In this document: in pieces, positions 1,185 to 51,346 of the stretch
Numbering within the stretch: the stretch's first letter is position 1
How the letters are laid out: each line of letters starts with the position of its first letter
Virus record (IMG/VR): IMGVR_UViG_3300018917_000004
Location: 1 to 52,415 of that record
Source of the DNA: a virus
Lineage: Duplodnaviria > Caudoviricetes
Strand: one strand, 5' to 3'
DNA length: 52,415 nucleotides
Notes under the pieces: model-generated
What the model saw: only the letters and a program-made list of their open reading frames with translations
Database searches by the model: none
What the model was told of the DNA's origin: nothing
Made by a program: the position numbers and the translations under genes

Positions 1185-1220
1185 AATAAATAACCCCTGT
1201 GACATTGTTATCACAAGGGT
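1185..1220 (-). terminator. Intrinsic terminator hairpin containing TGTTATCACA
   Basis: CCC...GGG stem with a U-tract on the minus strand; identical copy at 48315-48350. Confidence 0.65.
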
Positions 1221-1263
1221 ATAGGTAAACTTATGGTTAATTAGGTGAAATGCACCGAAGGTG

Positions 1264-2052
1264 CTAGTAGCCCATAAGCATATCGGCAGTAACGTTGATA
1301 TCGGGGGCATTGGCAGGCAGTACGGCTACCGAGACACCTTGCTTTTTATTCTTGCAAGTGTAGTGACCGAGGCACTTCAAATACATGCCGCTGAACTCTT
1401 CAGGCTCTAGGCCAAGGTCGCTAATAGCTTTGTTAGCTAGTACGTTACCGTGCCCTTTGACGACTAGGCATAACTTTTCATCACCCATGATGTCCTCAAT
1501 GAAAGCGCTAACAATCGGTAGTTTCTCATTGAGTGGCAGGTCAACTAGTTTAACCTTACCAAATGACATTTTGAAGTAATCGTGTAGTTCAGGAGACTTA
1601 GCTACCAACAGTTGATTTAATTTGCCGGTAGGGTCTCCTTTGTAATCTTTAAGCTTCACTGGTAGCGACACGGTATCGCCATACTGCTCACCGATATCCA
1701 AGGTGACTCGCTTGTCATTCATAACAAAGCGCATCTCTGAGGTAATATTGAGAATTGGTTGATGTTGTTTACCCCAGTTTACACAGGCTTCACCGGCGAA
1801 GTTACTGACATCAGGGCCATACGCTGTAAACTCAGTGACACCTTGGGCATTAGGCTTGAACGATAGGTCATAGGTGTAGCCTGTTTCGTTAAAGTTGATA
1901 CCCATGAGGTCAGCAGCGTTTACCAGCATTTCACGTAAGTCATCGGTAATCAGCGGTGATTCATTATCTAGCTTCAGGTTACGCTTTACTGTAACGGTAG
2001 CTGCCAGGGTAGCCAGTGAATCCTTAAGGCCCATTGTAACTAGTGAACGCAT
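1264..2052 (-). CDS. Hypothetical replication-module protein (possibly ssDNA-binding)
   Basis: 262-aa ORF between exonuclease and helicase with its own promoter; function inferred from position only. Confidence 0.45.
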   Translation of the reverse strand: MRSLVTMGLKDSLATLAATVTVKRNLKLDNESPLITDDLREMLVNAADLMGINFNETGYTYDLSFKPNAQGVTEFTAYGPDVSNFAGEACVNWGKQHQPILNITSEMRFVMNDKRVTLDIGEQYGDTVSLPVKLKDYKGDPTGKLNQLLVAKSPELHDYFKMSFGKVKLVDLPLNEKLPIVSAFIEDIMGDEKLCLVVKGHGNVLANKAISDLGLEPEEFSGMYLKCLGHYTCKNKKQGVSVAVLPANAPDINVTADMLMGY

Positions 2053-2150
2053 GTCTTTAATTTCCTTTGAATTAACTCGTGTAACTCTGTTCCTTTCACT
2101 TCTTTAATATAACACTGCTTGCACCCTGTTAACCACAATGTTACAAAACT

Positions 2151-3203: not shown

Positions 3204-3331
3204 AACAGTTATCTCAATTACATCTATTCAATAGTATAGCACAATGCTTCGCATTACTGCCACTAATATAACCGATATGATATTGTGATAACAATGTAAA
3301 TTTAGGTAATTAGAGCCGTGAGGCTCACAAG

Positions 3332-3610: not shown

Positions 3611-3731
3611 GTGTACTCCGTACCCTTATGATTTAATGAATGTGACAATGTGATAACAAGTTAACTGAAGTTCATAGTGGCGCGATAGCGACACGTGCTA
3701 TAATATAGATAGTTAACCTTGAGGTAACTTT

Positions 3732-3965: not shown

Positions 3966-3999
3966 ACCCTGTGTCCTTGTGATAACAGGGTTATTTATT
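3966..3999 (+). terminator. Terminator hairpin containing TGTGATAACA
   Basis: ACCCTGT...ACAGGGT followed by TATTTATT; reverse complement of the 27483/39480/48114 hairpins. Confidence 0.65.
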
Positions 4000-4951: not shown

Positions 4952-4980
4952 AACCCCTGTATCATTGTGATAACAGGGGT
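4952..4980. terminator. Terminator-like hairpin containing TGTGATAACA
   Basis: ACCCCTGT...ACAGGGGT just downstream of the 16-aa ORF. Confidence 0.55.
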
Positions 4981-5047: not shown

Positions 5048-5058
5048 TGTGATAACAA

Positions 5059-6277: not shown

Positions 6278-6464
6278 CCTTTTAACCATCATTGTTAATT
6301 ATGTGTACGCAGGTTAGCTATAAAGCACTTTAATATAATTGTGATAACAAAGCTGCGCTTTAAGACCTAATTTAATTCATGTGATAATGTGATAACAAAA
6401 GTTAACTATATATAAATGAGGATAAAAGAGCCGTAAGGCTCATTGATAGAAACAGAGGTAAGCG

Positions 6465-7853: not shown

Positions 7854-7917
7854 TTTGTTATCACATTATCACACGAGTTAACTAAGTATAAATAGTAGCA
7901 TTTAAGGATGAAATAGC

Positions 7918-9384
7918 GTGCCAGAGTATCCTAATATACCATTCAGCGACGGCCAGGAGTACACAGCAGAACTGGCTTACAAGGCCTTCTACTGCCCAGT
8001 GTTTGACGGTGCCACCAATTTATTAGGGCATCGTGAGGCAATTAGAGACGATGAGTTAAGCAATACGGGCATTAAGGCTGATGTTATCACATTGCGTGAT
8101 GGTTTCAAGTGTACTGCCGGTGCTGGCCTTGTAATCAACTATTCTTCTGGTATCATGAGAGATAGTAGTGATAATGTTATCACAAAGGCAGCGGGGCAAG
8201 TGTTAGCACCGGATAACGCTACATCTTACGTTTACATTGATGGCACTGATAACACAATTAAATGTAGTGTAACACGAAGTGTACTAAGGGCCACCTTAGC
8301 CAAAGTAGTGACGCTGGCAGGCAATATAACGTCAATAGCTGACCAGAGACACCCTGCCACGGTGAACGTTAGGCCACCAGCGTTTATCATTAAATCTTTC
8401 GGAGGTCAGAGTACAACAATTAAAATATGTACCCAAGGGGAGACACTGAAAGGCGTTATTGAATGTGGGTACTTTGAGATACCTGCGGGTGTAACGGTGA
8501 CTGTTGACCGTTTTGCCAAGGTGATATGCTCAGGGGCCGCGAATATATACGGTACAGCTAACGTCACACCACAGACACAAGGGCACCCTCGGACGAGCTT
8601 TGGTCTATTTACCTCAGGGGGATACTTAGGCTACCAACCGGGTGAGGGCCTGGGGAAGAACGGTGTACCTTATCACTACACTCAACAGCCCTATGGCTCA
8701 TCAGGCGGTATAGGGTACGTTAGTAATCGACCGGGTAACACGGTGACATCTTGGTGCTATCAGGAAACCGCAGGGCACGGCGGCGGCGCGTTTAGTATTG
8801 AAGCTGCCGGTGCCATCAGGATGTATGCCAGTGCGGTCATTACGGCTAAAGGTACCAACGGGGCTAAGGCAGGTAGTACTGATGCAGGCGTAACGCTACA
8901 ATGTATCGCTAGCGGTAGCGGTGGGGGCAGTGGAGGCCTAGTGTCATTCGTGTCGGCTACTAGTGTTGTTGTTGAAGTAGGGGCCACGGTGGACGTTAGA
9001 GGTGGCAATGGTGGTGATGGCTATATTCATACACCGGGGTACGGTGCGCCACTAGTAGCAGCACCGGGTACACCTGGGGGTGGTGGGTACTTTGTGACAA
9101 TAGCGCCAACCGTTAACACCACAGGCTTTACTTTTCTTAACGCTGGCGGCACTCATGGCCTCTGGGGCAGTCATTTAAATGGCGTGACCATAGTAAACTC
9201 AACTACCATTAGCTTCCTAGATACCACCTACGGCCTAGTGGGAGGCGGTTTAGGCGGTGCGTTTGGTGGTGCGGCGGGTGGCTTTAGTACCTATTTCAAC
9301 GGTACGCCACAGGTCGATTATGTAATTATGTTACCCGGTGGTGCCGGGGTGCATCATATTTCAAATAGCCTACCAACGGCTTAG
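7918..9384 (+). CDS. Glycine-rich tail fibre / receptor-binding protein
   Basis: Gly-rich repeats (GGGSGG, GGNGG); adjacent to the collar fibre. Confidence 0.7.
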   Translation: MPEYPNIPFSDGQEYTAELAYKAFYCPVFDGATNLLGHREAIRDDELSNTGIKADVITLRDGFKCTAGAGLVINYSSGIMRDSSDNVITKAAGQVLAPDNATSYVYIDGTDNTIKCSVTRSVLRATLAKVVTLAGNITSIADQRHPATVNVRPPAFIIKSFGGQSTTIKICTQGETLKGVIECGYFEIPAGVTVTVDRFAKVICSGAANIYGTANVTPQTQGHPRTSFGLFTSGGYLGYQPGEGLGKNGVPYHYTQQPYGSSGGIGYVSNRPGNTVTSWCYQETAGHGGGAFSIEAAGAIRMYASAVITAKGTNGAKAGSTDAGVTLQCIASGSGGGSGGLVSFVSATSVVVEVGATVDVRGGNGGDGYIHTPGYGAPLVAAPGTPGGGGYFVTIAPTVNTTGFTFLNAGGTHGLWGSHLNGVTIVNSTTISFLDTTYGLVGGGLGGAFGGAAGGFSTYFNGTPQVDYVIMLPGGAGVHHISNSLPTA

Positions 9385-9810: not shown

Positions 9811-9861
9811 GCCTTACGGCTCTAATCGTCTTATGTTATTTGTTATCACAACACTACACCG

Positions 9862-10249: not shown

Positions 10250-10315
10250 TATAACTCATGTAGTCTTGTGATAACAGAGTATACTAGGGATAACGTGCCG
10301 AAGGCACTAGGCTCA

Positions 10316-10741: not shown

Positions 10742-10813
10742 TTCAGTACCTTTGTGTGATAATGTGATAACAGTGTAATGAGGTATAGAAGGGGGCCGGG
10801 TGGCCCCTAGTTG

Positions 10814-11473
10814 TTATGTACGTGGCAAGGTACAAGCAGAGGTTACCATTTTAACCTCAGTACCGTCATAGGCGTTATGGTGTTCAGAATCGGTATAAGT
10901 AGCGTAGTAGAGGAAGTCGAGGCCATTAAGTAACCAATACTGTGAGTGCATTATGTTACCGAGTTCTGTAAAGTAACCTAGTGTCCCATCAGGAAAGGCG
11001 TGTACCGGGTAAAACTCATTCGCCTCTTGCACCGCTGTATCATTGTTATCACAAAAGTACTGAGGGTTAATAGAGCAGGCGGGGGCAATGTAGGTAACTG
11101 TAACTTGTGAGCGTTCCTGATGCCCTTGTGCTTCCTCTAGGGTACGGTAGTAAACATAACTTAGAACCGAGTCATCCCAAGAGCCAAAGTAGATTACTGA
11201 GTTATCAGGACAAACGTGTACAGGGTAGAACTGATTAGCCCCGTCTAAATCAGGGGTTACCGTGACATCACAAGCCTCTGTGATATAGGCATCATTAGCC
11301 GTAATAGACTCGATATCATAAGTGACCTCTTGGGTCATGCGTGCCGCTTCAGTCAGTACTTGCTCGATGTCAGCTTTGAGCCAATGCATTCTAGGTTGTC
11401 TTACGCGACCTTGGTCAACTAGGTTACTGTAATGAAAGTTAAACTCTGTAATCATTTGCGCTTTGGTAACCAT
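10814..11473 (-). CDS. Hypothetical protein with two YPV..YF..PAC domains
   Basis: Start moved to ATG 11473, downstream of the promoter at 11504-11532; internal duplication. Confidence 0.7.
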   Translation of the reverse strand: MVTKAQMITEFNFHYSNLVDQGRVRQPRMHWLKADIEQVLTEAARMTQEVTYDIESITANDAYITEACDVTVTPDLDGANQFYPVHVCPDNSVIYFGSWDDSVLSYVYYRTLEEAQGHQERSQVTVTYIAPACSINPQYFCDNNDTAVQEANEFYPVHAFPDGTLGYFTELGNIMHSQYWLLNGLDFLYYATYTDSEHHNAYDGTEVKMVTSACTLPRT

Positions 11474-11604: not shown

Positions 11605-11634
11605 AACCCTTGTGACATTGTTATCACAAGGGTT
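11605..11634. terminator. Hairpin containing TGTTATCACA
   Basis: Perfect stem AACCCTTGTGA...TCACAAGGGTT. Confidence 0.6.
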
Positions 11635-11873: not shown

Positions 11874-11894
11874 GTGACTTTGTGATAACAAAAG

Positions 11895-13857: not shown

Positions 13858-14233
13858 TGGTGACTAGCTCATACAGTCGCTCTAAGACATCAGCGGTATG
13901 GTGACCATCGTATCGAAAGTTATAAACTAACTCAGGGTAGAGACAGTTACCCCAGTAGGTCATATGGAGATGTTGTGAGATTTGACGGCCATCAGGGAAT
14001 TCAAGCACGACTAAGAACCAATCAGGGTCAATAGTGGCATTCTGGCTATCGCGGCGAGTTTTGATTACCCTGTAGCCTGACTGACCTTGTGATAACAAGT
14101 TACATAAGAGGATAAATTGAAGACTACGGAAGCTGTAAAGCTCATCAATAGTATGATAGGTATCGCCATCACCTGATACAGCGTAATGACACCGGGGGCA
14201 CTTGGTCATAATAGTTACCACGAGAATTAACAA
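13844..14233 (-). CDS. Phage protein with WDGH-like motif
   Basis: WFLVVLEFPDGRQISQHL...YDGHHTADVLERL; likely start is the ATG at ~14209; promoter at 14240-14268. Confidence 0.6.
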   Translation of the reverse strand: MLILVVTIMTKCPRCHYAVSGDGDTYHTIDELYSFRSLQFILLCNLLSQGQSGYRVIKTRRDSQNATIDPDWFLVVLEFPDGRQISQHLHMTYWGNCLYPELVYNFRYDGHHTADVLERLYELVTTIHP

Positions 14234-14304: not shown

Positions 14305-15855
14305 GTGGAGGCTCACGCAGTGACGGTTAACCCTTGGGGAATGTTTAGCGTACCGGGCACCTACGTTACCGAAGATACATATGGTAAGGTACCGGCGGCC
14401 CTAGCAGACCATAGTTTAATGTATATGCTGATGTTCAGCAATAAAGCCGGGGCCCCTGTGGATGAGTTAACCTTCATCAGTAGCCTAGCTGACTTCGATA
14501 ACACTTTCGGCCCTGGGTACTCGCGGCCCTCGGTACAACTATTCTTTGCACAGTTTCCTGAAAGTGGCTTTTATTGCGTCAATGTGCCGTCAAGGGCCTC
14601 TAGGTCAGTTAGTGTAACATTGGGTGCGGTAGGCTCAGTATACTCTTTAACAATTGATGGTTATGTAGTATCCTATACTTCAGTTGTAGGCGATACGGCC
14701 CCAATGGTGCTGAGTGCGCTAGCGGACAAAGTGAACAGCACGGCGACGCATTTAGCATCAATGGTCTCTGGTAATCTACGGTTAGTTGATAGTGATACCG
14801 TAGTATCAAGTAGCGGTAATGTGACACTAGGGGCAGTGGTGCCAGCGGCAACCTACCCTGTAGCACAAGATGTAGTAGATAGCGCTACAAAGGTATTGGT
14901 GAGCGATTTGAGACAAGGTTTCATCGTGGCACCTGAGTTCTACCTGGAAATTACCGATATGGCACAAAGGGCCCTGTTAGCTAATAGCCTAGATGCCTTG
15001 TGCGCTCGTGATGGTCATAAGTGGGTTAATGTGGTTGATTGTGGTGAAGAGGTGGCCACGGCGACAACAGGGGCAGGTGCGTTGAACCTAGCACTAAAAG
15101 AGCGTGCCATGTTACAGAGTCCGGCCGGTCACTCGTGGTACTTCTTTCCCCACTGGGTAAATGGGGATAACGTAAATGTACCTATGTCTACCAGTGTGGT
15201 GGCAGTAGCTATTAAACGGTATCGCGTGAACTTTGCTGACCCCCCGGCTGGTACTAGTTTCCCAGTGTACGGCGTGACCTCTCAGACATTTAGAGTACGT
15301 AACGAGCATCAGGGCATACTTAACCCCGTTGGTGTTAACTGTGGCCGTATTTTCGATGAGGCGACCATATCACCCCGGAAAGGCGCGTGTATATACGGTT
15401 GTCGCACATTGTCAACGAGTGGCTTTTGGAAGTTTGGCACGACACGAGTTATAGCTAACGTACTTGAGGGTACATTACGCTACGCTTTCGATACCTTTAT
15501 CTTTCAGAGTGTTGATGGGGAAGGTGAGGCCTTTAATCGAATCATGCAGACAGCAGTGAGTATTTGTGAGCGCATGAGGCTATCGAGAGCATTCTACGGT
15601 AAAACGCCGGATGAAGCGTACTTTGTAGTTTGTGATGAGCGCAATAACCCTCTAATCGACTTAGAGGCCGGCCGTGTCAATGTGGATGTCTACTTTAAAC
15701 CAGCGCCAATGCTTGAGATATTGATTATCAGAGTACACCGCACTTCACTTGACACTGTGATAACAGAGGCCTTTAGTCAAGCCAACAGTGGCACCAGTAC
15801 AGAAGGGAAGGCAGCAACGGCCCCTACTGAAGCGGCGTCCTCTAGTGGTAGCTAA
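14305..15855 (+). CDS. Tail sheath protein
   Basis: PGTYVTE, LNPVGVNC, IYGCRTLS, AYFVVCDERNNP, PAPMLE motifs. Confidence 0.9.
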   Translation: MEAHAVTVNPWGMFSVPGTYVTEDTYGKVPAALADHSLMYMLMFSNKAGAPVDELTFISSLADFDNTFGPGYSRPSVQLFFAQFPESGFYCVNVPSRASRSVSVTLGAVGSVYSLTIDGYVVSYTSVVGDTAPMVLSALADKVNSTATHLASMVSGNLRLVDSDTVVSSSGNVTLGAVVPAATYPVAQDVVDSATKVLVSDLRQGFIVAPEFYLEITDMAQRALLANSLDALCARDGHKWVNVVDCGEEVATATTGAGALNLALKERAMLQSPAGHSWYFFPHWVNGDNVNVPMSTSVVAVAIKRYRVNFADPPAGTSFPVYGVTSQTFRVRNEHQGILNPVGVNCGRIFDEATISPRKGACIYGCRTLSTSGFWKFGTTRVIANVLEGTLRYAFDTFIFQSVDGEGEAFNRIMQTAVSICERMRLSRAFYGKTPDEAYFVVCDERNNPLIDLEAGRVNVDVYFKPAPMLEILIIRVHRTSLDTVITEAFSQANSGTSTEGKAATAPTEAASSSGS

Positions 15856-17158: not shown

Positions 17159-17180
17159 CCCTATGTAACAATGTGATAAC

Positions 17181-19124: not shown

Positions 19125-19213
19125 TGTGAGCCTAACGGCCCTAAGTCACTTGTTATAATTGTTATCACAACGTATACTTAGATAACTTAAGTAGCATAGG
19201 GCACGCGTCGCAG

Positions 19214-20663: not shown

Positions 20664-20753
20664 GGTGGTATTGTGTACTGCGTACTGCCTAAATGTTTAA
20701 CTGTGTGATAATGTGATAACGTGATAACAAATGAAAACTAGGTGCAAGGTGCC

Positions 20754-21107: not shown

Positions 21108-21132
21108 ATATCCTCATGGTATTGTGATAACA

Positions 21133-21876: not shown

Positions 21877-21910
21877 AAAATACCCCTGTGACATTGTTAT
21901 CACAAGGGTT
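21877..21910 (-). terminator. Terminator containing TGTTATCACA
   Basis: Same hairpin family as 1185-1220. Confidence 0.6.
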
Positions 21911-34452: not shown

Positions 34453-34459
34453 AATGTTA

Positions 34460-34975: not shown

Positions 34976-35069
34976 AACTCAATTAATACCGTTTAGTTCT
35001 GTTAGGTAACAGTATAACACAAATAACCCCTAGTTGCCTAGGGGTCTCATGTGTGACTTTGTTATCACA

Positions 35070-35358: not shown

Positions 35359-36802
35359 TTGTCACCTCGATATCATTAGTCTCATTATAGCCTTCTGGTG
35401 CGTCGCCGGTCAACCTATCCTGGCCACCAATTAGCTTTATAGGGCCGTATTCATTCTCTACTTTGCGCCAGTGCTTCAAACCTACCTTAAACGCCTTATC
35501 GCCCTTACCTACACCCCAGGCCTCACGTATAATACGGCCCTTCGACCAACCAAGGTTAGCTTTCTCAACAGCCACCTTATATAACACTTGTGATAACATT
35601 ATATCTGATGTACTTGTTATCACAATTTCATTAGTGTCTACAGGTACCGTGAGGGTGTTGGTTACAGTTGGCGCTACCGGGGACACCGTTACCCACTGGT
35701 TAGGCTTAGGCAACTCAGCATAATATTTATCTACAATGCACTTATGCTCTTGTGATAACATGGTACTCAGTGTAGCCTGCCAATAGGCCCGGTGTGCGTC
35801 ATTGCTCAATAGGCCCATTATTTCAATAGCGCGTTCTTCAGCCCCTGTACCTACATAGATGTGACACAGTGACTGCCTAACAGCACCCTGGCCCTCAATA
35901 CCTAATGATTTAACGTCATTCTGCTGTACAATCAGAATCAGCCTAATGTTCACCTTTCGCGCTTCTCGCACTAGGTCTAGCCAGATGTCACGAAGGCCAG
36001 GGTAGTCGCTAAGTGAGTTGAATTCGTCACAGATAAAATTGATAGGCTCACCTGACACAAAGCGGCCGTCATCGCCTAATTTTAACCGGCGTTTCATTTC
36101 AAACCACAGGGCCCTGAATGCTTGACAAATCGTTGGCGATATGGTACCCTCTTCAATTTCAGACCACGTTACTATACCATCATGACCCTGTGGCACTGTT
36201 ATCACACGTAACATGTTATCCCACTGGTCTAACGGTGTCTTAACGTTGAATTGGTGCTTATTGAAGGCCGCGCCGTTACCTACGTTATTTTCGGCCCCTA
36301 TGATTCTCTTACAAGACGAGAACTCACCTACCTGCCAGTGCGGTATAGCGCCGTAGGTTGTACCTTTCAACAAGCCTGCCAAGTTCTCAGCTAGAGTACT
36401 CTTACCACCGCCGCTAGCGCCGATAATGAGACAATGAGGATACAGGTTAGGCTTAGTAACCAATTCTTGCCAATCGAATGTCTTAGGTACCTCAGGGGCC
36501 TCTAGCACAGGCCTGGTAGCCTCATAATATCTAGCGGTGCGGCTCATGTCACTCACATTTCTCAGGTCTCTAGAGGCCTCTAGTGACTCTCTGCCGTTCC
36601 TAGATGACACCATAGCCACTGTGCTTGTCATGGCCCCCGTTAGCAATAGCATCGTTTTACTGACACCGATTGTACACAGGGCACCATACAGCGACGCGGT
36701 GATACCCGTTACAGCCACTGTGTTAATAATAGCTGTACGCAGATAATGTGATTGAAGGAAGGCCGCTTCTGACCTAATGCTGCCGGGGTCATAATTCATC
36801 AC
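35339..36802 (-). CDS. Membrane-anchored FtsK/HerA-superfamily P-loop ATPase
   Basis: Two N-terminal TM segments, Walker A GASGGGKST, Walker B FICDEF, REARKVNIRLILIVQ, HTH-like C-terminus. Confidence 0.75.
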   Translation of the reverse strand: MMNYDPGSIRSEAAFLQSHYLRTAIINTVAVTGITASLYGALCTIGVSKTMLLLTGAMTSTVAMVSSRNGRESLEASRDLRNVSDMSRTARYYEATRPVLEAPEVPKTFDWQELVTKPNLYPHCLIIGASGGGKSTLAENLAGLLKGTTYGAIPHWQVGEFSSCKRIIGAENNVGNGAAFNKHQFNVKTPLDQWDNMLRVITVPQGHDGIVTWSEIEEGTISPTICQAFRALWFEMKRRLKLGDDGRFVSGEPINFICDEFNSLSDYPGLRDIWLDLVREARKVNIRLILIVQQNDVKSLGIEGQGAVRQSLCHIYVGTGAEERAIEIMGLLSNDAHRAYWQATLSTMLSQEHKCIVDKYYAELPKPNQWVTVSPVAPTVTNTLTVPVDTNEIVITSTSDIMLSQVLYKVAVEKANLGWSKGRIIREAWGVGKGDKAFKVGLKHWRKVENEYGPIKLIGGQDRLTGDAPEGYNETNDIEVTSDSILP

Positions 36803-37299
36803 TATTCTCCTATAGTTCCAACTGGTGTTACAATGTTATAACAAGACTCACCAGGGCCTATTTGACCCTGTTCACATCGGGCACTCGGTACGATACTAAC
36901 GCACCCTAGGCTAATACCTGCCATAATGCACACCAATCGCATCATGGCCATCGGTGCCAACTTAGCATTACTATAGGTAGTTATACCTAGTAGTAAAATG
37001 ATAGTACCTGAGGGTATGAGGAGTAACGGGAAGGTAGGAATACCTACTGTAATTAGGCCCCAAGTGGACACCCATAGCCCTAGGTTCCCGGCGGCCTCAA
37101 CTCTACTGTTAGGTAAAGAGAAGAACTTTGACCACTCATGAACCCAGCCGTCACTACTATCATTAGTGTTGCCTTGGATACTCAAGGGCGTCACTGTCTG
37201 TTGCCCTAGTATCCCCTGCCTCTCTATTGCTGCTATGTCTTTCTGAGGTTCCCTGTTGTCCATAACTCTCCATGATGGTACTTGTGATAACAATAGCAC
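36802..37299 (-). CDS. Multi-TM membrane protein
   Basis: Three hydrophobic segments; coupled to the ATPase; likely start ATG 37263. Confidence 0.6.
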   Translation of the reverse strand: MLLLSQVPSWRVMDNREPQKDIAAIERQGILGQQTVTPLSIQGNTNDSSDGWVHEWSKFFSLPNSRVEAAGNLGLWVSTWGLITVGIPTFPLLLIPSGTIILLLGITTYSNAKLAPMAMMRLVCIMAGISLGCVSIVPSARCEQGQIGPGESCYNIVTPVGTIGE

Positions 37300-37528: not shown

Positions 37529-37551
37529 GCGATTAGTATCTGTGTGATATT

Positions 37552-38172
37552 GTGATAACAAGTAATATAAGGAGGCACGAAGTGCTTGACGGTAAAAAGG
37601 TAATTAGTTACATGAGGGCTAAGGGCTATGAAGTGCGTGCGGTTAACCTAGTAGGTATTGAGGGCATGAATGCTGATGGTAGCCTCAATAGTGACCAGTT
37701 AGACCTATGGAATGATGTTGTCTTGGTCATCAGGGACACTGGTGAGATATTGGTCTCAGCGGTAGCCACAACGGAACCAGGCCGCTATTACACTAAGAAC
37801 CGTATGAACCCACGAGGGGCCGCTAGGTTAGCCATAGGGCAACATAAGGATGCTTGGGCCTTCGGTTACCACAACTATGATAAGTCGCATCCTGCCTTAG
37901 TTCAAGTAGGGCCGGTTACTGTCCACCGTGACAATAATGCTGATGGTTTCCGTACTGCTGACGTTACCGACGTGGGCCTCTTCGGTGTCAATATACACGG
38001 TACTCTTGACAGGCATAGTGCCAACAGTGTAGGCCGTTGGTCTGCCGGTTGTGTTGTTAGCCGTGATTGGCCTAAGCACCTCACTATCCTAAAATTCATG
38101 CGTGACTCAGGACGGCCCCTGATTACCTTCACGCTACTCGACGGCACCGATTTCTATAAGTTAACTCGGTAA
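37552..38172 (+). CDS. Endolysin-like protein with L,D-peptidase-type His/Cys motif
   Basis: ATTEPG, GVNIHG..SVGRWSAGC. Confidence 0.65.
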   Translation: MITSNIRRHEVLDGKKVISYMRAKGYEVRAVNLVGIEGMNADGSLNSDQLDLWNDVVLVIRDTGEILVSAVATTEPGRYYTKNRMNPRGAARLAIGQHKDAWAFGYHNYDKSHPALVQVGPVTVHRDNNADGFRTADVTDVGLFGVNIHGTLDRHSANSVGRWSAGCVVSRDWPKHLTILKFMRDSGRPLITFTLLDGTDFYKLTR

Positions 38173-38854: not shown

Positions 38855-39097
38855 CTAACTTTCGCCCTTGGTTATTCGTGGCTCTAAGAGAAACAGTAGG
38901 CGAGTATAGTGAGCTGTGAGGATACCTAATAACCTCTCGGTCTCCTTAGGCTTTTCGAGGTACACTGCGGCCAGAAACATATCAGCGGCCCTATCATCAT
39001 AACCATATACCTTAAGGAGTAGATAGGCAGTATGTAACTTGTGGCCACAGCGTATCTGTGATAACAATTCAGAAGCGTATTCAATAGGAGCTTTCAT
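38855..39097 (-). CDS. Hypothetical protein
   Basis: 80-aa ORF whose start overlaps the divergent ATG. Confidence 0.4.
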   Translation of the reverse strand: MKAPIEYASELLSQIRCGHKLHTAYLLLKVYGYDDRAADMFLAAVYLEKPKETERLLGILTAHYTRLLFLLEPRITKGES

Positions 39098-39479: not shown

Positions 39480-39510
39480 AAATACCCTGTTATCACAAGG
39501 ACACAGGGTG
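39480..39510. terminator. Terminator containing TGTTATCACA
   Basis: Same family as 27483-27517. Confidence 0.6.
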
Positions 39511-39708: not shown

Positions 39709-39809
39709 TAGCTCCTTCTTGTTGACTAGGGTGTACAGGGTGACCTAATGGTCAACGGTAGTTATATTACTACCTGCTTTCTCATAATGTGACTTTGTTA
39801 TAACAGAGG

Positions 39810-40785: not shown

Positions 40786-40819
40786 GGTGTCTCCTAAGGG
40801 TGATAATGTGATAACAATG

Positions 40820-41870: not shown

Positions 41871-41907
41871 GTTGTCTCCTGTGTGTGTGATAATGTGATA
41901 ACAAATG

Positions 41908-42144: not shown

Positions 42145-42168
42145 GTGTGTAGTATTGTGATAACAAGG

Positions 42169-45354: not shown

Positions 45355-45388
45355 AATAAATAACCCTGTATCATTGTGATAACAGGGT
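45355..45388 (-). terminator. Terminator containing TGTGATAACA
   Basis: AATAAATAACCCTGT...ACAGGGT. Confidence 0.6.
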
Positions 45389-45929: not shown

Positions 45930-46914
45930 TTAGGTAGTTGACAATTGAGTGACCTAATGCCTTAGCGAGATTCACAGGAACAGCGTTGCCAATTTGCTTA
46001 TACTGGCTACTGTCGCTACCAGTGAACACGTAATCATCAGGGAATGTTTGTATTCTAGCATATTCTCGAACACTTAGTGGCCTAGTTTCTAATGGGTGAC
46101 ACCGTTCCGTCTTCTTACCATAGGGGGATGTCAGTAACGTCAAGGAAGGCTTAAAGCGACTAAGGCGTCTTAGTATACCAGTTGACCCGGTGCCTGTTGC
46201 ATTCCATAAGGGGCCTAGGTATTGTTGCTGCGTCTCAGGGTCTAACGATGTCCAATGCTTACCCTCAGGTACTTGTGATAACAAATCAGCCTTGGTGTTA
46301 CTGTAAGTAAAGCCGGTTGACCAAGGTACATCCTGTAGGGCATAGTTCAATAAATGGCATACCGGGGCAGGCTTTGGCCACTGAAAGACAGCGTTATCGT
46401 GACAGGTGCCCATTATGAATAACCGTTTGCGTGATTGTGGCACCTCGTAGTCAACGGCGTTCAAGAGGCGATAATCGACCTGATAGCCTAATTGTCTAAA
46501 TGCGCTAACAATTGCCATCATTGTATTGCCACCATCTTGACTAAGTAGCCCTGGCACGTTCTCAGCTAGAAACAAGGCGGGCCGTGTCTCATCAATGCAC
46601 CTTAGCATCTCGAAGAATAATAGGCCCCTAGGGTCTCTCTCGCCGTTACGTTGACCAATTAAGCTAAACGGTTGGCACGGGAAACCGCCAGTTACCACAT
46701 GAGGCCTATAGCCTTTATAATCGACCTTGGTTACATCCTGTTGCCTTACACGCCATTCTGGTCTATTATGACGTAAAGTATTACAAGCGTCCTTATTGTT
46801 CTCTACTAGTAAGGCAGGATGAATACCGGCGGCCTCAAGACCTAAAGCGAGACCTCCGGCCCCTGCGAATAACTCAATGCTGCTGTAGTCTTGTGATAAC
46901 ATGATACTACTCAT
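45910..46914 (-). CDS. C5 DNA cytosine methyltransferase
   Basis: ELFAGAGG, GGFPCQ, AENV, QSRKR, QIGNAVP. The TERCHP..RPLSVREYARIQTF region resembles the GGNCC-type (Sau96I-like) family. Confidence 0.93.
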   Translation of the reverse strand: MSSIMLSQDYSSIELFAGAGGLALGLEAAGIHPALLVENNKDACNTLRHNRPEWRVRQQDVTKVDYKGYRPHVVTGGFPCQPFSLIGQRNGERDPRGLLFFEMLRCIDETRPALFLAENVPGLLSQDGGNTMMAIVSAFRQLGYQVDYRLLNAVDYEVPQSRKRLFIMGTCHDNAVFQWPKPAPVCHLLNYALQDVPWSTGFTYSNTKADLLSQVPEGKHWTSLDPETQQQYLGPLWNATGTGSTGILRRLSRFKPSLTLLTSPYGKKTERCHPLETRPLSVREYARIQTFPDDYVFTGSDSSQYKQIGNAVPVNLAKALGHSIVNYLNEVNHG

Positions 46915-47491: not shown

Positions 47492-48057
47492 TGCATTAGG
47501 CCTGCTGTGATTAGTTGGTTGGCGATAGTGGTGAGTAGGCCGCCATAGGTGCCATAGTTCATTATGATGCCATGATGGGCCGCAACTCGACTCAATGTTT
47601 TAATGTTAACCCCTAGGTATTTATCGGTTTCTAGTGCTGTCGCAATGCTACGTTGCACCTGGAAGAGATATAAGGCCTCAGTGGTAGCTAGGCTCTTAAG
47701 GTATTCTGCCTCCACAGGGTTCCTCATGTCAGTAAATACCGGCACTTGCCCCCGTTCTAAATATGAAGCCACTTGTCGCTTAGTGTAGTGTAGGCCTAAC
47801 CTGGGATGTAACTGTGGCATTACTTCAAACCCTTTAACCATTAGGTCTAGCGGTGATACACCGAGGTCATCAATAACCGTAGTACGCCACTCTCGGTCTT
47901 CCAGTTGCTCTAATGTTACACCAAGGTATTGTGATAACATCAGTTTAAATGGTTCAACGAATTTAACATTGACTAAGGCATGTGATAACAAATCACGCAT
48001 TAGGCGAAACGTTGTGTCCTTACCGGCCCCCGATAACCCTGCTAGCACGATGAGCAT
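47488..48057 (-). CDS. Deoxynucleoside monophosphate kinase
   Basis: GLSGAGKDT, KFVEPFK, VFTDMRNPVE. Confidence 0.8.
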   Translation of the reverse strand: MLIVLAGLSGAGKDTTFRLMRDLLSHALVNVKFVEPFKLMLSQYLGVTLEQLEDREWRTTVIDDLGVSPLDLMVKGFEVMPQLHPRLGLHYTKRQVASYLERGQVPVFTDMRNPVEAEYLKSLATTEALYLFQVQRSIATALETDKYLGVNIKTLSRVAAHHGIIMNYGTYGGLLTTIANQLITAGLMQ

Positions 48058-48113: not shown

Positions 48114-48149
48114 AATAAAATACCCTGTTATCACAAGGACACAGGGTAT
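48114..48149 (-). terminator. Terminator containing TGTTATCACA
   Basis: Near-identical to 27483-27517. Confidence 0.6.
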
Positions 48150-48314: not shown

Positions 48315-48350
48315 AATAAATAACCCCTGTGACATTGTTATCACAAGGGT
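48315..48350 (-). terminator. Terminator containing TGTTATCACA
   Basis: Identical to 1185-1220. Confidence 0.65.
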
Positions 48351-48376
48351 AATAAGGTAACCAAGGGTTGAAAGTT

Positions 48377-48613
48377 TTACCTGAACATACTGTCAAGCAC
48401 AACGCTAACTAGTTTTAAACCGAGGAGAATTAAAGGTAACAGACTCAACCAGAGTACTAGGTTCAAGAAGGCTGCCGGTATCAGCATGACTAGCCAGGTC
48501 AGAACGGTGGCCACAATGGGCATAAAGCCTAAGGTGAGCCAGAACAACATAACACTGCCGCTAAACATCTGGTAACATAATGCAGCCAATATCGCCCAAG
48601 TGATTAAATGCAT
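48377..48613 (-). CDS. Small very hydrophobic membrane protein
   Basis: 78 aa, almost entirely hydrophobic. Confidence 0.55.
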   Translation of the reverse strand: MHLITWAILAALCYQMFSGSVMLFWLTLGFMPIVATVLTWLVMLIPAAFLNLVLWLSLLPLILLGLKLVSVVLDSMFR

Positions 48614-48676
48614 ATCGTTGAACCTTTTACGTTATATTGACCATTATAGGGCCTAAGGCGGCCCTATGTCCACTAT

Positions 48677-51346
48677 TTAAACTGTGACTTCACCGGATTC
48701 TATCGCGGCCATGAGGTCAGTTGCTGTTATCACAATGCCCTCTGGTAGACCCTGTGGGAACTCAGGGCACTGGCAGAATGGCTTGCCATCGTCTGACTTA
48801 GCAGTTTTCGAGAGGTGTTGGGTAACATCGATTTCCTCAAACCACGCTTTACTACTCGGTATTAAATCAAGGTTTAAGCGGTCAATGAAGGCGCAAGTGG
48901 TCATGACGTGCGCTAGGTTCAATGCATACGCCGCTTGCAATACATGCTCCTTATTGACAACAGCACGTATCTCGTCATGAATGGTGAGCATCAGGCGGCC
49001 ATCAATACCATAGTACTTAAAGAAGTATGAGGTTAATACTACCAAGATGTCACGCCAGTCAGCACCAGAGGCCTGAACTATCCTGTTAACCATCGTGGTC
49101 TTAAAGTTTCTACCGACATCTTCAAGGGCCTTGGTTACCTTGCAGCGTAACACGGGTGTAGGTTGACCTGATTCCTTCGTTATCTTCTCGATAGCTGTGA
49201 ACGCTTCGGAAGCTAGGCCCCCCGTGAAGCCCCCACGGCCATCCTGTTTGCCTACAAAGTTATCAGTGAACTTAATGGCCATCTCATTACAGTACTCTTC
49301 AGACCACGTGGGCATAACTTTCATTAGGTACTCACGGCACCCTTTAACCCTCTGCCCATAAAGACCACCATAAACCTCAGGCTTCACGTCACTACGCTTC
49401 ATACCTTGCTTAGCGGCCATGATTGAATGAACGTCGGTCTTAGTGCTACTGGTGCCACACATGACCGATACTGACAACGGTGAGGCACCTATGAATGGCA
49501 GTGTCTGTCGGTAGTCGAGTTTCACTTGGTCAGCAAGCCATGCGGCCACCGTTAACTCTTGTGAGCTAATGTCACCACCGATTATCACATAACCCTCAGG
49601 GGCCTCGACTAACGTTTTAACACCTGTACCCCATCGTTTAGCCTTAGGGTTAGGCATAACCTGACTGAAGTTATCGGCACAGCGGCCCGTGATGGTACCT
49701 GTAACCGTAATTTGGAACAGGGTGACCGGGTAGCCCTCAGGACACTCGACGTGAAGCGCTTTCACACGTTTCCTAATTGATGTCCAGTTAACTAACGAGT
49801 TCATTGCTTTAATCGCTGTCTTCAGGTCACCCGGTGCGCTCAACATACCCTCTTCCACAGGTACACTAAAGCCCTTGATAAACAACTGTGTGACTCGCTG
49901 GCCCCGGTCTTCAGGGTGCGGTAGTGCCTCACGTTGCCCTTGGTCATCTAAGGTATAATAGCCTAACTCATCACACCACAGCACCGCACGGTCACGCCAT
50001 GTTACATTAAGTAGTAGCGGTGTAACACGAGTGGCCATATGGTACGGTTTAGCACGGTGGTTCCTATACCACACAGGTTGGCCCTTGGTCTTACCAGTTA
50101 GCGCCGGTGTCCAGTCGAGCTGTGCTAATTGCGGTGATTCTCGTGCCAGTAGTTCACACCAACCTTTCACGATAGCCTCAACATTACCCTTATTCAACTG
50201 CTTACCAAACTGACTCAAATAATCTTGAAATGACTCGTTATACATTACGTACACTTCATGCACCCTATTGTCAACAACGGCATCTAGTTGCTCACGTATA
50301 GCTTGAGTGGCTGTCTCAACGTCACGGTAATAACTAGGGTAACGAGTGGTAGAAAGTGGGCACCAATAGGAACCCATGAGAAGCTGTGCGGTCTGTGTGG
50401 TCGGTGAGGGCCGGTGTATCTTATTCTCCTCATACACCTTCTGAAACACTTGGTATGTCGCTATGACATCTTTGTAGCAATACTGAAGCACGCTGCTGAA
50501 TTCTTGACGACAATAATCATAGCCGTACTTTATTAACTCATCACGTACCCCTTTGTCAAGCTTTTGGTCGAAGTAGAATGAGTAGATAGCGTCAAGGCCG
50601 TTGGTAGCAGTTTCATCAGACCACATCGGTGCGAAGGGGTCACTTTCAGACATCTTGAATACTATACGTTGCTGGTTACCCATGCCGCGTACTGGTATCC
50701 ACATTGCCATAGTGTCAGCAAAATAGTTACCTGATGGCGTCCTAAGGTACTCAGGGGCCAGAAACTGCCTATCGTAAGGTACGTTATGCCCTACTACAAC
50801 ACAGTTACGACCAAATGGCACCGTGCTAACTAGGTTATCTGGGTTCCACTGCCACACATAGATATCAGTCGCCGTAATGCCCACACAGCACACCGGGAAC
50901 CATTGTGAACTATCGCCGTCCTCCCAGGGCACTAGTCGTTCAATAGGTATATTTACTGTCTCGAAGTCTAATGTGATAACAATGCCATCAGGGGGTTGTG
51001 GTATTGACTGCCACTTTCCAGGTACATTAGCCGACCTCTGAAACCAACCGGGTCGGGCCGGTGGTAACGTGAAGCCACAAGGTAAATAATCACCGCTAGC
51101 GTACTCATTCAACCGAGAAATAAGGGGGGCCCCCAGGTCGGCTGTTGCCTTCCTAATGACCTCTTTATACGTACCGAGTTCTGGCACCGGCAAGTTAACG
51201 GTAGTACTGTTATCAATCGAGGCCTCTAGACCAAAGGGCCTTAGTTTATCCTGTTGCAACTTACGCTCATAGGGGTGAACGTCACGCGGTAGGCGTCCTA
51301 TTAGCTGCAAGTGTAGCTTGTTGCTTAACTTGTTTATGCTGACCAT
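48677..51346 (-). CDS. Family A DNA polymerase, mitochondrial Pol-gamma-like, with 3'-5' exonuclease
   Basis: Exonuclease LDFET, VGHNVPYDR, FADTMAM, YCYKDV; polymerase GTITGR, GGDISSQEL, RSDVKPEVYGGLYG, VNRIVQASGAD, TIHDEIR. Confidence 0.92.
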   Translation of the reverse strand: MVSINKLSNKLHLQLIGRLPRDVHPYERKLQQDKLRPFGLEASIDNSTTVNLPVPELGTYKEVIRKATADLGAPLISRLNEYASGDYLPCGFTLPPARPGWFQRSANVPGKWQSIPQPPDGIVITLDFETVNIPIERLVPWEDGDSSQWFPVCCVGITATDIYVWQWNPDNLVSTVPFGRNCVVVGHNVPYDRQFLAPEYLRTPSGNYFADTMAMWIPVRGMGNQQRIVFKMSESDPFAPMWSDETATNGLDAIYSFYFDQKLDKGVRDELIKYGYDYCRQEFSSVLQYCYKDVIATYQVFQKVYEENKIHRPSPTTQTAQLLMGSYWCPLSTTRYPSYYRDVETATQAIREQLDAVVDNRVHEVYVMYNESFQDYLSQFGKQLNKGNVEAIVKGWCELLARESPQLAQLDWTPALTGKTKGQPVWYRNHRAKPYHMATRVTPLLLNVTWRDRAVLWCDELGYYTLDDQGQREALPHPEDRGQRVTQLFIKGFSVPVEEGMLSAPGDLKTAIKAMNSLVNWTSIRKRVKALHVECPEGYPVTLFQITVTGTITGRCADNFSQVMPNPKAKRWGTGVKTLVEAPEGYVIIGGDISSQELTVAAWLADQVKLDYRQTLPFIGASPLSVSVMCGTSSTKTDVHSIMAAKQGMKRSDVKPEVYGGLYGQRVKGCREYLMKVMPTWSEEYCNEMAIKFTDNFVGKQDGRGGFTGGLASEAFTAIEKITKESGQPTPVLRCKVTKALEDVGRNFKTTMVNRIVQASGADWRDILVVLTSYFFKYYGIDGRLMLTIHDEIRAVVNKEHVLQAAYALNLAHVMTTCAFIDRLNLDLIPSSKAWFEEIDVTQHLSKTAKSDDGKPFCQCPEFPQGLPEGIVITATDLMAAIESGEVTV

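What the first reader, a model, noticed from the sequence alone, without database searches (positions are those of the whole stretch)
1206..50981. About 50 copies of the 10-mer TGTGATAACA across the genome, including coding sequence
Seen: ~52 exact copies by eye (~32 forward, ~20 reverse), against a chance expectation well below 1, plus palindromic variants TGTTATAACA. Many sit at gene junctions. Many others are inside CDSs, where they impose LLSQ/MLSQ/VIT peptides on unrelated proteins (baseplate J, MTase, kinase, ATPase, polymerase), which points to DNA-level selection. Intergenic copies often carry a second TGTGA-like unit exactly 8 bp away (e.g. TGTGATAA-TGTGATAA-CGTGATAACA at ~20704). Established analogies: mycobacteriophage stoperators, RHH-protein arrays (omega binds WATCACW, which this motif contains), and 8-bp TraB/FtsK recognition repeats. 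Inference: a genome-wide protein-binding or self-marking system. Candidate readers are the RHH-like proteins (24254-24889; 40555-40785, which has a double motif just upstream), the HTH protein 34460-34975, and the ATPase C-terminus.
Basis: partly seen in the sequence, partly recalled or inferred. Interest (0 to 1): 0.85.

Follow-up and report, generated by a model that had tools for sequence, protein, structure and literature searches.

The report
Genome-wide exact DNA word in cyanophage
A 52-kb phage of cyanobacteria carries one exact 10-letter DNA word about once per kilobase; selection on the DNA itself keeps it there, and a very distant relative shares it while cyanobacterial genomes do not, so an unidentified protein probably reads and marks the phage DNA.

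Summary
TGTGATAACA occurs 52 times (32 +, 20 -) against 0.15 expected. ORFs hold 25 copies against 1.8 after synonymous-codon shuffling.

The window is a complete 52,415-bp myovirus-like virus record. A distant relative, G001 (46 kb; 28 of 75 ORFs shared at 20-44% aa identity), holds the same word 42 times, plus 22 TGTTATAACA. A close relative of G001 keeps 6 of 7 sites at 76% nt identity.

None of 401 + 251 sampled cyanobacterial genomes is enriched.

A Floridaenema-borne relative of the window has its own word, CTAGTTAAC: 30 sites in 72 kb, some in promoter spacers.

Both phages contain no GATC at all. This explains why the symmetric form TGTGATCACA is never seen.

Best reading (confidence 0.4): a genome-wide array of dsDNA sites for an unidentified, probably dimeric, phage regulator that works like stoperators. 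Main rival: a DUS/Chi-like self-mark.

They are absent from G001, without homologues in the database searched, or do not covary with the word.

The parts
1206..1215 (-). word copy in terminator hairpin type T1 (word in stem), downstream of gene 1264-2052
3284..3293 (+). word copy, intergenic, 80 nt upstream of gene 2151-3203(-)
3649..3658 (+). word copy with 8-bp upstream unit, divergent junction
3978..3987 (+). word copy in terminator hairpin type T2, convergent junction
4966..4975 (+). word copy in terminator hairpin type T3
5048..5057 (+). word copy, intergenic, next to a stop codon
6340..6349 (+). word copy, intergenic, upstream of tail-fibre gene 6465-7853
6388..6397 (+). tandem 8-bp double (TGTGATAA + word), 67 nt upstream of 6465
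7856..7865 (-). tandem 8-bp double between the two fibre genes; G001 has a copy at the same junction
8082..8091 (-). word copy inside ORF 7918-9384
8175..8184 (-). word copy inside ORF 7918-9384
9841..9850 (-). word copy 11 nt before start of 9862-10233
10267..10276 (+). word copy at convergent junction
10763..10772 (+). tandem 8-bp double 21 nt before start of 10316-10741(-)
11044..11053 (-). word copy inside ORF 10814-11533
11619..11628 (-). word copy in terminator hairpin T1
11881..11890 (+). word copy 7 nt before probable start (11873) of 11661-11873(-)
14088..14097 (+). word copy inside ORF 13844-14233
15756..15765 (+). word copy inside tail-sheath gene
17172..17181 (+). word copy abutting the ATG of the 647-aa ORF 17181-19124, which I take to be the tape-measure gene from its size and position (no family hit); G001 has TGTTATAACA abutting the ATG of the homologous gene
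19160..19169 (-). word copy 35 nt after the stop of ORF 17181-19124 (probable tape-measure gene)
20368..20377 (+). word copy inside baseplate-J-like gene
20704..20729 (+). triple tandem array at 8-bp register (last unit CGTGATAACA), upstream of 19497-20663(-)
21123..21132 (+). word copy filling the 25-nt spacer between two baseplate genes
21895..21904 (-). word copy in terminator hairpin T1
23564..23573 (+). word copy in terminator hairpin T3, convergent junction
25863..25872 (+). tandem 8-bp double filling a 17-nt convergent junction
26479..26488 (.). palindromic variant TGTTATAACA
26986..26995 (+). word copy inside ORF 26895-27293
27495..27504 (-). word copy in terminator hairpin T2, 58 nt after the probable major-capsid gene; G001 has a copy 6 nt after its homologue
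28641..28650 (.). palindromic variant TGTTATAACA
34165..34174 (-). word copy 10 nt before the TerL start; G001 has a copy about 37 nt before its TerL start
34455..34464 (-). word copy holding the TGA stop of 34460-34975, 2 nt before the next start
34562..34571 (-). word copy inside the HTH-protein gene
35060..35069 (-). word copy, intergenic, 84 nt upstream of 34460-34975
35589..35598 (+). word copy inside ATPase ORF 35339-36802
35615..35624 (-). word copy inside ATPase ORF, inverted to 35589
35751..35760 (+). word copy inside ATPase ORF
36197..36206 (-). word copy inside ATPase ORF
36834..36843 (.). palindromic variant TGTTATAACA
37283..37292 (+). word copy 19 nt before probable start 37263
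37551..37560 (+). tandem 8-bp double about 30 nt before the endolysin-like gene
39057..39066 (+). word copy 29 nt before probable start 39096
39488..39497 (-). word copy in hairpin T2 at the edge of a 931-nt non-coding stretch
39796..39805 (.). palindromic variant TGTTATAACA
40807..40816 (+). word copy (upstream unit GGTGATAA) 21 nt before start of RHH-like ORF 40555-40785
41894..41903 (+). tandem 8-bp double 23 nt before probable start 41870
42156..42165 (+). word copy 11 nt before start of 41908-42144(-)
45375..45384 (+). word copy in terminator hairpin T3, convergent junction
46274..46283 (+). word copy inside C5-methyltransferase gene
46892..46901 (+). word copy adjoining a possible ATG start of the methyltransferase: the codon at 46902-46900(-) shares its TG with the word
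47930..47939 (+). word copy inside dNMP-kinase gene
47981..47990 (+). word copy inside dNMP-kinase gene
48126..48135 (-). word copy in terminator hairpin T2
48336..48345 (-). word copy in terminator hairpin T1
48725..48734 (-). word copy inside DNA-polymerase gene
50972..50981 (+). word copy inside DNA-polymerase gene

Best explanation
(T)TGTGATAACA is a recognition site on double-stranded DNA for one sequence-specific DNA-binding protein. I think the protein is phage-encoded, small and dimeric. Selection keeps its sites at about one per kilobase over the whole phage genome.

Inferred: the protein's ideal site is the palindrome TGTGA|TCACA. That form contains GATC, which these phages exclude completely, so one half-site is kept as TGTTA. 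This gives TGTGATAACA, or less often TGTTATAACA.

Inferred mechanism: bound protein blocks or punctuates transcription wherever it sits, in the way repressor-bound stoperators block elongation in Cluster A mycobacteriophages. At 8-bp-register tandem arrays next to some starts it would bind cooperatively.

Shown: the DNA-level selection, the strand symmetry, the conservation, the absence from the sampled hosts and the placement at gene boundaries.

Inferred: binding, the identity of the protein and the effect on transcription.
For: 1. Exact and strand-symmetric. There are 52 exact copies against 18 one-mismatch variants in all. The only recurrent variant, TGTTATAACA, is its own reverse complement; TGTGATCACA occurs 0 times.

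2. GATC is absent. Count 0 in the window (shuffle mean 111.5) and 0 in G001 (composition expectation 180). This accounts for the missing symmetric form.

3. The enrichment survives synonymous-codon shuffling in both phages: 25 vs 1.8 and 31 vs 2.6.

4. The same word occurs 42 times in G001, whose shared proteins are only 20-44% identical.

5. The word is not enriched in hosts: at most 17 copies per genome in 401 genomes, and at most 10 copies of the 11-mer in 251.

6. Placement in the window:
- 33 of 52 copies are intergenic.
- 13 copies lie within 30 nt of a start codon.
- 8 copies lie at stop codons.
- 11 copies sit in hairpins that fold like intrinsic terminators (z -1.65 to -5.57).
- 6 of 8 convergent junctions carry a copy, against 2 of 8 divergent ones.

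7. Four junction positions are shared with G001: the start of the probable tape-measure gene, the junction between the two fibre genes, just after the capsid gene, and just before TerL.

8. 8-bp register: TGTGA-N3-TGTGA occurs 9 times and TGTGA-N8-TAACA 12 times in the window; G001 has 5 each of TGTGA-N8-TAACA and TGTGA-N3-TGTTA, but only 1 TGTGA-N3-TGTGA. [quoted passage not shown]

9. A closer relative of the window lies in a Floridaenema contig (34 window ORFs hit). It has its own word, CTAGTTAAC: 30 sites in 72 kb, 24 of them outside ORFs. 22 of the 41 genome copies of ACTAGTTAAC lie in that 71 kb. At least two copies sit between -35-like and -10-like hexamers, by my reading.

10. TTGTGATCACAA occurs as local pairs (2-4 copies) in at least 120 unrelated IMG/VR contigs. 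The unbroken palindrome is therefore used as a local operator-like site elsewhere.
Against: - No reader is identified. Blastp and tblastn find no small DNA-binding protein shared by the window and G001. Pfam finds no shared HTH or RHH family.
- G001's copies are 57% deep intragenic, close to the 72% of the genome that is deep intragenic. That looks more like a density-selected word than like operators.
- None of the intragenic copies sits at a homologous codon in the two phages, apart from the one before TerL.
- No integrase or repressor family is among the 25 of 28 Pfam families listed for the window, so a lysogenic setting is not shown.
- The window is closer to the Floridaenema phage than to G001, yet shares its word with G001. 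Vertical inheritance of a phage-encoded reader does not predict this.
- No binding, transcript or protein data exist.
Confidence: 0.4

Rival explanations
1. Self-mark for a core DNA machine. The word is read by a conserved part of the replication, packaging or DNA-protection machinery: primase-helicase, terminase, or a factor that shields DNA from nucleases. It serves to tell phage DNA from host DNA. It is kept by selection, or by a transmission drive, for density rather than for position, as uptake sequences and Chi are in bacteria.
For: - A 10-11-bp exact word carries about 20 bits, enough to be rare in a 2-8 Mb host. Hosts hold 0-17 copies against about 1 per kb in the phage.
- One-mismatch variants are scarce.
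- Spacing is Poisson-like.
- G001 has 57% of its copies deep inside genes.
- Positions turn over between the window and G001 while density is kept.
- The DNA-handling proteins detectably shared by the window, G001 and the Floridaenema phage are DNA polymerase, primase-helicase, FEN exonuclease, dNMP kinase, TerL and the HTH protein beside it.
- Uptake sequences show the same pattern: 47-70% in coding DNA that makes up 84-89% of the genome, with intergenic copies as hairpin-forming inverted repeats (PMC2346458, passages).
Against: - No orientation pattern suggests a replication or translocation polarity.
- The HTH protein's helix does not covary with the word.
- In the window two thirds of the copies are at gene boundaries. 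In the Floridaenema phage 24 of 30 sites are outside ORFs, some in promoter spacers. Both look regulatory.
- No known phage machine uses such a word, to my knowledge (recalled, not searched).
Confidence: 0.28
2. Host factor site. The word recruits or titrates a host DNA-binding protein that the hosts of the window and of G001 share. The Floridaenema phage's word would serve its own host's factor.
For: - The window and G001 share the word without a shared regulator, and against the protein phylogeny.
- Both show the same complete avoidance of GATC and GGWCC, which hints at similar hosts.
- TGTGATCACA occurs at 0-11 sites per genome in 41 cyanobacterial genomes, often above the reversed-word control.
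Against: - Counts of the word itself in the 401 host genomes are broadly similar to those of the reversed control.
- The eight copies in Floridaenema aerugineum lie in unrelated contexts.
- GGWCC avoidance is common to most relatives, so it does not single out one host.
- The host is unknown.
Confidence: 0.15
3. Promoter or promoter element for host RNA polymerase, possibly phage-modified.
For: - The word begins with the same TGTG as the eight GTGCTATA-N-T extended -10-like sites.
- Two tandem doubles lie 3 nt upstream of GTTAACTA..TATAAAT.
Against: - Those two doubles have opposite orientations at the same distance.
- 23 copies point away from local transcription and 19 with it.
- Distances to start codons range from overlap to 84 nt.
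- -10-like hexamers show no fixed spacing on the word's own strand.
Confidence: 0.05
4. RNA-level signal (processing site, translational operator or terminator element), or a passive product of a small mobile hairpin element.
For: - 11 copies are in hairpins of three near-identical types.
- 13 copies lie in leaders.
- In G001 a copy follows a tRNA gene by 2 nt.
Against: - The allowed forms are exactly reverse complements of each other. An RNA reader accepting both strands' versions should also accept TGTTATAACA as readily, yet the window has 4 of these against 52.
- The word sits in the stem in T1 hairpins and partly in the loop in T2/T3.
- 41 of 52 copies have no hairpin, and their flanks differ.
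- Rfam finds nothing.
Confidence: 0.05

Closest known systems
Stoperators of Cluster A mycobacteriophages (L5, Bxb1)
   Same: Tens of copies of one short site are spread over a roughly 50-kb phage genome. Most are not in promoters, some lie within genes, and the site differs between related phages. In that system the repressor bound to them blocks elongation (PMC6550527, passages read; PMC9283540, start of abstract in listing).
   Different: Stoperators are 13 bp, 20-30 per genome, asymmetric, oriented with transcription and read by a known immunity repressor. Here the word is 10-11 bp, 52 copies, in either orientation (19 same, 23 anti) and a third to a half deep inside genes. It is identical in phages with about 30% protein identity, and no repressor is known. 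Supplementary figures of that paper on orientation were not seen.
DNA uptake sequences (USS/DUS) of Pasteurellaceae and Neisseria
   Same: An exact 9-12-mer at roughly one per kb, on both strands. It is under-represented but frequent in coding DNA, and intergenic copies form hairpins as inverted repeats, which are debated as terminators (PMC2346458, passages). The same pattern is seen.
   Different: Uptake sequences belong to cellular genomes and serve DNA uptake in competence. Here the word is in a virus, is not enriched in the sampled host genomes, and no uptake step is involved.
RHH operator arrays: MetJ met-boxes and omega (ParB of pSM19035) heptads
   Same: [quoted passage not shown] The window has pseudo-palindromic units at an 8-bp register. 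The reverse complement of the word contains TATCACA, which fits the omega heptad WATCACW. Omega dimers bind direct or inverted neighbouring repeats (PMC9499535).
   Different: Omega sites are 7-10 contiguous 7-bp heptads at a few promoters. Here arrays have at most three units at 8 bp and most copies stand alone across the genome. No RHH family passes a Pfam cut-off.
HIP1, the highly iterated palindrome of cyanobacteria (name and sequence GCGATCGC recalled)
   Same: A short exact word at roughly 0.3-1 per kb, in coding and non-coding DNA. Relatives of this phage carry it.
   Different: HIP1 is a host-wide word that their phages share. The window and G001 have none, because it contains GATC. 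Their own word is not host-wide.

Membership tests
Stoperator system (Cluster A mycobacteriophages) | 20-30 repressor sites distributed through the phage genome, most not in promoters | tested here: met
   52 copies spread over the genome with Poisson-like spacing. The feature is as stated in PMC6550527.
Stoperator system (Cluster A mycobacteriophages) | [quoted passage not shown] | tested here: not met
   19 same, 23 anti, 7 at convergent and 3 at divergent junctions.
Stoperator system (Cluster A mycobacteriophages) | Cognate immunity repressor encoded by the phage and binding the sites | tested here: inconclusive
   No repressor-like Pfam family in the window or G001. Binding is not testable with these tools.
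Stoperator system (Cluster A mycobacteriophages) | Site sequence differs between related phages together with the repressor | tested here: inconclusive
The word differs between the window/G001 (TGTGATAACA) and the Floridaenema phage (CTAGTTAAC).
Omega/ParB(pSM19035) parS | Heptad WATCACW | tested here: met
   The reverse complement TGTTATCACA contains TATCACA. Heptad as given in PMC9499535.
Omega/ParB(pSM19035) parS | 7-10 contiguous 7-bp repeats at a few promoters | tested here: not met
   At most three units, at an 8-bp period. 45 of 52 copies have no adjacent unit.
MetJ-type RHH operator | Tandem palindromic boxes at 8-bp spacing | tested here: met
   TGTGA-N3-TGTGA occurs 9 times and TGTGA-N8-TAACA 12 times in the window; no other spacing from 1 to 14 gives more than 2 for these two patterns. 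This holds for a minority of copies only.
MetJ-type RHH operator | An RHH protein as reader | tested here: inconclusive
   24254-24889 gives NikA-like E 0.003 and Arc E 0.01, both below cut-off. It has no homologue in G001 or among the 1.84 billion representatives searched. G001 ORF 1650-2432 looks RHH-like by eye, but its model is unusable (pLDDT 38).
DNA uptake sequences | Hundreds to thousands of copies in the genome of a competent bacterium | tested here: not met
   This is a virus record. The sampled cyanobacterial genomes hold 0-17 copies.
Chi-like recombination hotspot | Over-representation in the host chromosome | tested here: not met
   No enrichment over the reversed control in 401 and 251 genomes. 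The host itself is unknown.
KOPS/SRS/TraB-type translocase guide | Strong orientation skew along the replicon, and a cognate FtsK-like ATPase | tested here: not met
   Orientations alternate in short runs. ORF 35339-36802 has only sub-threshold P-loop/TraG hits and is not found in G001.
Sigma-70-type promoter | Fixed orientation and distance to transcription and translation starts | tested here: not met

The most novel reading that the evidence does not exclude
Some cyanophage lineages carry a private genomic word, in dialects: TGTGATAACA in the window and G001, CTAGTTAAC in the Floridaenema phage. The word would be a viral counterpart of uptake sequences or Chi. It would mark phage DNA at about 1-kb intervals for a conserved phage machine, or shield it from a host nuclease. 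It would be maintained by density selection for so long that the proteins have diverged to about 30% identity. Its visible asymmetry would be a scar of total GATC avoidance under host restriction.
Probability: 0.25. Interest if true: 0.85.

Novelty: new variant of a known kind. Interest (0 to 1): 0.7.

Why it matters
Genome-wide site arrays in phages are well documented mainly for the stoperators of one mycobacteriophage cluster. Here a denser, orientation-free, exact word appears in uncultured phages of filamentous cyanobacteria (a biocrust source is listed).

Three features stand out:
- The word has persisted across very deep divergence.
- A different dialect appears in a related Floridaenema element.
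- Its shape is explicable by restriction avoidance.

If it is a self-mark, it would be a new way for viruses to tell their own DNA from the host's.

The word is also a practical signature for finding relatives and for host-independent binning of these phages.

Tried and rejected
- Megablast of 20 kb against INPHARED phages: no match.
- TerL as a single query in viral contigs: nothing.
- The 18-bp double word in viral contigs: 4 chance hits at 0.1-0.2 copies per kb.
- Pair scans for the word. In viral contigs: 27 stretches; apart from G001 itself they hold 2-7 copies confined to one small region, tandem arrays in the one resolved. Only L120 and L144, close relatives of G001, showed dispersed copies; the six other loci inspected were unrelated tandem arrays.
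- Exact-string literature search: 898 papers hold one of the strings. The 20 listed were primers or unrelated. A keyword search on cyanophage motifs gave nothing relevant among the 15 listed. I therefore found no description of this word in those searches only.
- Small clusters of the 11-mer in two host genomes are ordinary HIP1-bearing host DNA with no phage-protein hits.
- tRNA and Rfam scans of the window: none.
- Position of -10-like hexamers relative to the word: no fixed spacing on the word's own strand. On the opposite strand there is a local excess just downstream of the word (9 against about 1.9 expected in one 10-nt bin).
- Other TerL relatives (L013-L021, L023, L037) show HIP1 but no private word in the 6-21 kb held for each.
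- ORF 1264-2052, which lies between the primase and the exonuclease genes in the window, G001 and the Floridaenema phage: no homologue by word search and no usable Atlas hit.
- Atlas hits of 34460-34975 to HTH_23, HTH_7 and Sigma70_r4 clusters score 0.82-0.86, which is lead level only.
- Single-sequence fold of G001 ORF 1650-2432: pLDDT 38, not used.
- Sequencing runs: no RNA holder listed and contigs only, so neither expression nor read ends could be examined.

Full report
**What the window is.** The window is a whole IMG/VR virus record of 52,415 bp, rated 100% complete. It encodes a tail sheath, a baseplate J-like protein, portal, large terminase, family-A DNA polymerase, a D5/P4-type primase-helicase, a FEN-type exonuclease, a dNMP kinase and a C5 cytosine methyltransferase. 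The primase-helicase ORF runs off both ends of the record. The large terminase has named relatives only in filamentous cyanobacteria: Floridaenema, Trichormus, Nostoc and Leptolyngbyaceae. Public runs that hold the sequence are labelled biocrust metagenome.

**The observation.**
- TGTGATAACA occurs 52 times, 32 on + and 20 on -, against 0.15 in shuffles.
- The core widens to a T before it: TTGTGATAACA occurs 35 times.
- One-mismatch variants total only 18. The single recurrent one is the palindrome TGTTATAACA, with 4 copies. TGTGATCACA is never seen.
- Inside longest-start ORFs there are 25 copies. 300 synonymous-codon shuffles give a mean of 1.8 and a maximum of 5. The enrichment therefore does not come from codon usage or protein sequence.
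- After refining seven start codons by eye and dropping one doubtful ORF, 33 copies are intergenic and 19 coding. Non-coding DNA is about 13% of the genome.

**Anatomy in the window.**
- Eleven copies lie in three near-identical hairpin types, followed in the T1 and T2 types by T-rich tails. They fold with z-scores of -1.65 to -5.57. In T1 the word is in the stem; in T2 and T3 it lies partly in the loop. Ten of the eleven point the same way as the gene they follow (and my reading).
- Seven copies have a TGTGATA(A/T)-like unit directly upstream, at an 8-bp register. One triple array stands at 20704-20729.
- Thirteen copies lie 0-30 nt before a start codon and eight lie at a stop. In one case the TGA inside the word is the stop codon itself.
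- Six of 8 convergent junctions, 2 of 8 divergent junctions and 17 of 41 tandem junctions hold a copy.
- Orientation relative to transcription is balanced: 19 same, 23 anti.
- Spacing along the genome does not differ from random placement.

**Relatives.**
- A terminase-profile search of IMG/VR gave 20 loci. Only one, L022, carries the word. Its record, G001 (46,452 bp, complete), has 42 exact copies plus 22 TGTTATAACA and no TGTGATCACA.
- G001 shares 28 of the window's 75 ORFs at 20-44% identity; TerL is 34% identical. It encodes NblA, which marks it as a cyanophage.
- In G001 31 copies lie in ORFs, against 2.6 after synonymous shuffling. 57% are deep inside genes, against 72% of the genome.
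- Two metagenome fragments, L120 and L144, are close relatives of G001 (80-94% aa identity in most shared genes). At 76% nt identity, 6 of 7 G001 sites are kept in L120.
- Between the window and G001 no intragenic copy is at a homologous codon, except one just upstream of TerL.
- Four gene-boundary positions are shared: the start of the probable tape-measure gene, the junction between the two fibre genes, just after the capsid gene, and just before TerL.

**Not a host repeat.**
- In 401 genomes sampled across the Cyanobacteriota the word occurs 0-17 times per genome, broadly like the reversed control.
- In 251 genomes of the order of Floridaenema the 11-mer occurs at most 10 times per genome.
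- These are samples and the true host is unknown, so the statement is limited to the genomes searched.

**A second dialect.**
- A 126-kb contig of a Floridaenema aerugineum assembly holds a full relative of the window. 34 window ORFs hit it, with TerL 50% and polymerase 44% identical. It is closer to the window than G001 is.
- It has none of the window's word. It has 30 distinct CTAGTTAAC sites in 72 kb, 24 of them outside ORFs, with more one-mismatch variants than the window's word has.
- 22 of the 41 copies of ACTAGTTAAC in that 8-Mb genome lie in these 71 kb. In F. fluviatile 17 of 37 lie in the matching region.
- By my reading, at least two copies lie between -35-like and -10-like hexamers and one lies in a hairpin loop.
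- The two words share G-N-TAAC.
- Other terminase relatives, for which only 6-21 kb is held, show the host-type HIP1 word and no private word.

**Why the word looks asymmetric.** The window and G001 contain no GATC at all. The shuffle mean for the window is 111.5 and the composition expectation for G001 is 180. Neither contains any GGWCC. The symmetric 10-mer built from two TGTGA half-sites contains GATC, so it is excluded. The two forms that do occur are that palindrome with one or both central positions changed in the one way that is seen. The G-type half is preferred: 52 to 4 in the window and 42 to 22 in G001. This is what would be expected if TGTGA|TCACA were the best site of a symmetric dimer. 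In support, TTGTGATCACAA occurs as local pairs of 2-4 copies in at least 120 unrelated IMG/VR contigs. The same GATC avoidance explains why these two cyanophages have no HIP1.

**Who reads it.**
- 24254-24889 has weak, sub-threshold Arc and NikA-like hits. It has no homologue in G001 or among 1.84 billion representatives.
- 40555-40785 has no family hit and no G001 homologue.
- The ATPase 35339-36802 is present in the Floridaenema phage but not found in G001.
- The HTH protein 34460-34975 is conserved in all three phages beside the terminase genes. Its putative recognition helix is more alike between the window and the Floridaenema phage than between the two phages that share the word.
- G001 ORF 1650-2432 has an RHH-like N-terminus by eye, a tandem double upstream and two copies inside. 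Its model was unusable.

**Reading.** The data show a double-stranded, strand-symmetric, strongly selected, phage-private word.
- I favour a stoperator-like array for a small dimeric regulator (confidence 0.4). The reasons are the boundary placement in the window, the promoter-spacer sites and mostly intergenic placement in the Floridaenema relative, the 8-bp cooperative register, and the conserved boundary positions.
- The near-uniform spread in G001, the positional turnover and the lack of a shared regulator keep a DUS/Chi-like self-mark for a core machine as a strong rival (0.28).
- A host factor comes next (0.15).
- Promoter and RNA-level readings are poorly supported.

The comparison with stoperators rests on passages of PMC6550527. 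The comparison with uptake sequences rests on passages of PMC2346458. The comparisons with omega and MetJ rest on passages of PMC9499535 and PMC3413123. I found no description of this word, but only in the searches.

Noticed in passing
whole window; G001 (L033-L035): Complete avoidance of GATC: 0 in the window, where the shuffle mean is 111.5, and 0 in G001. Complete avoidance of GGWCC too: 0 against about 80 expected. GGWCC is also absent from most terminase relatives. This points to strong restriction pressure. The AvaII-type assignment of GGWCC is recalled, not tested.
   Followed up: partly
window 45910-46914 and whole window: GGCC occurs 392 times in the window (151 expected), much of it in GC-rich hairpins such as GGCCCCT/AGGGGCC. 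The window encodes a C5 cytosine methyltransferase (PF00145, E 4.8e-78). G001 lacks that gene and is depleted in GGCC (30 against 138 expected). A GGCC-specific self-protecting methylase is a plausible reading, not tested.
   Followed up: partly
window 1146-1168, 37497-37519, 51416-51438: Three copies of a 23-bp palindromic element, TGTG-N-CA-N9-TG-N-CACA. Two flank the primase-helicase gene and one lies in the divergent region before the endolysin-like gene. It looks like a separate dimer operator.
   Followed up: no
window 1103-1112, 3233-3242, 3695-3704, 13160-13169, 16572-16581, 37464-37473, 40859-40868, 48089-48098: Eight GTGCTATA-N-T sites, extended -10-like. Several are well placed upstream of replication-module genes. 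They are candidate host-type (early?) promoters.
   Followed up: no
window 5233-6464 and 39447-40377: Two long stretches (about 1.2 kb, holding only two short doubtful ORFs, and 0.93 kb with none) without convincing ORFs, tRNA or Rfam hits in an otherwise compact genome.
   Followed up: no
window 1-1065 and 51462-52415: One primase-helicase ORF (355 + 317 codons, in frame) runs across the ends of the record, so the record is a circular permutation cut inside a gene.
   Followed up: partly
loci L194-L313 (IMG/VR): At least 120 contigs, many about 55 kb with 40-45% G+C, carry 2-4 local copies of TTGTGATCACAA spaced about 30-33 or 40-44 bp apart. Apart from weak methyltransferase hits in 6 loci, their proteins are unrelated to the window's. 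This is probably the operator pair of another phage group.
   Followed up: partly
G002:C235:51.7-122.6 kb (L190-L193) and G004:C66: Floridaenema assemblies hold a roughly 71-kb relative of the window inside long contigs. HIP1 is present through all 80 kb fetched (2-6 per 10 kb). The element has its own word, CTAGTTAAC(TAG). Whether it is an integrated prophage was not checked at the borders.
   Followed up: partly
G001 (L033-L035): G001 encodes NblA (E 8e-9) and a PAPS-reductase/PP-loop protein (E 4e-13). It has a tRNA-Ile(TAT) followed 2 nt later by a word copy.
   Followed up: no
window 24254-24889: A 211-aa ORF with an Arc/NikA-like N-terminus has no homologue among 1.84 billion representative proteins.
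   Followed up: yes
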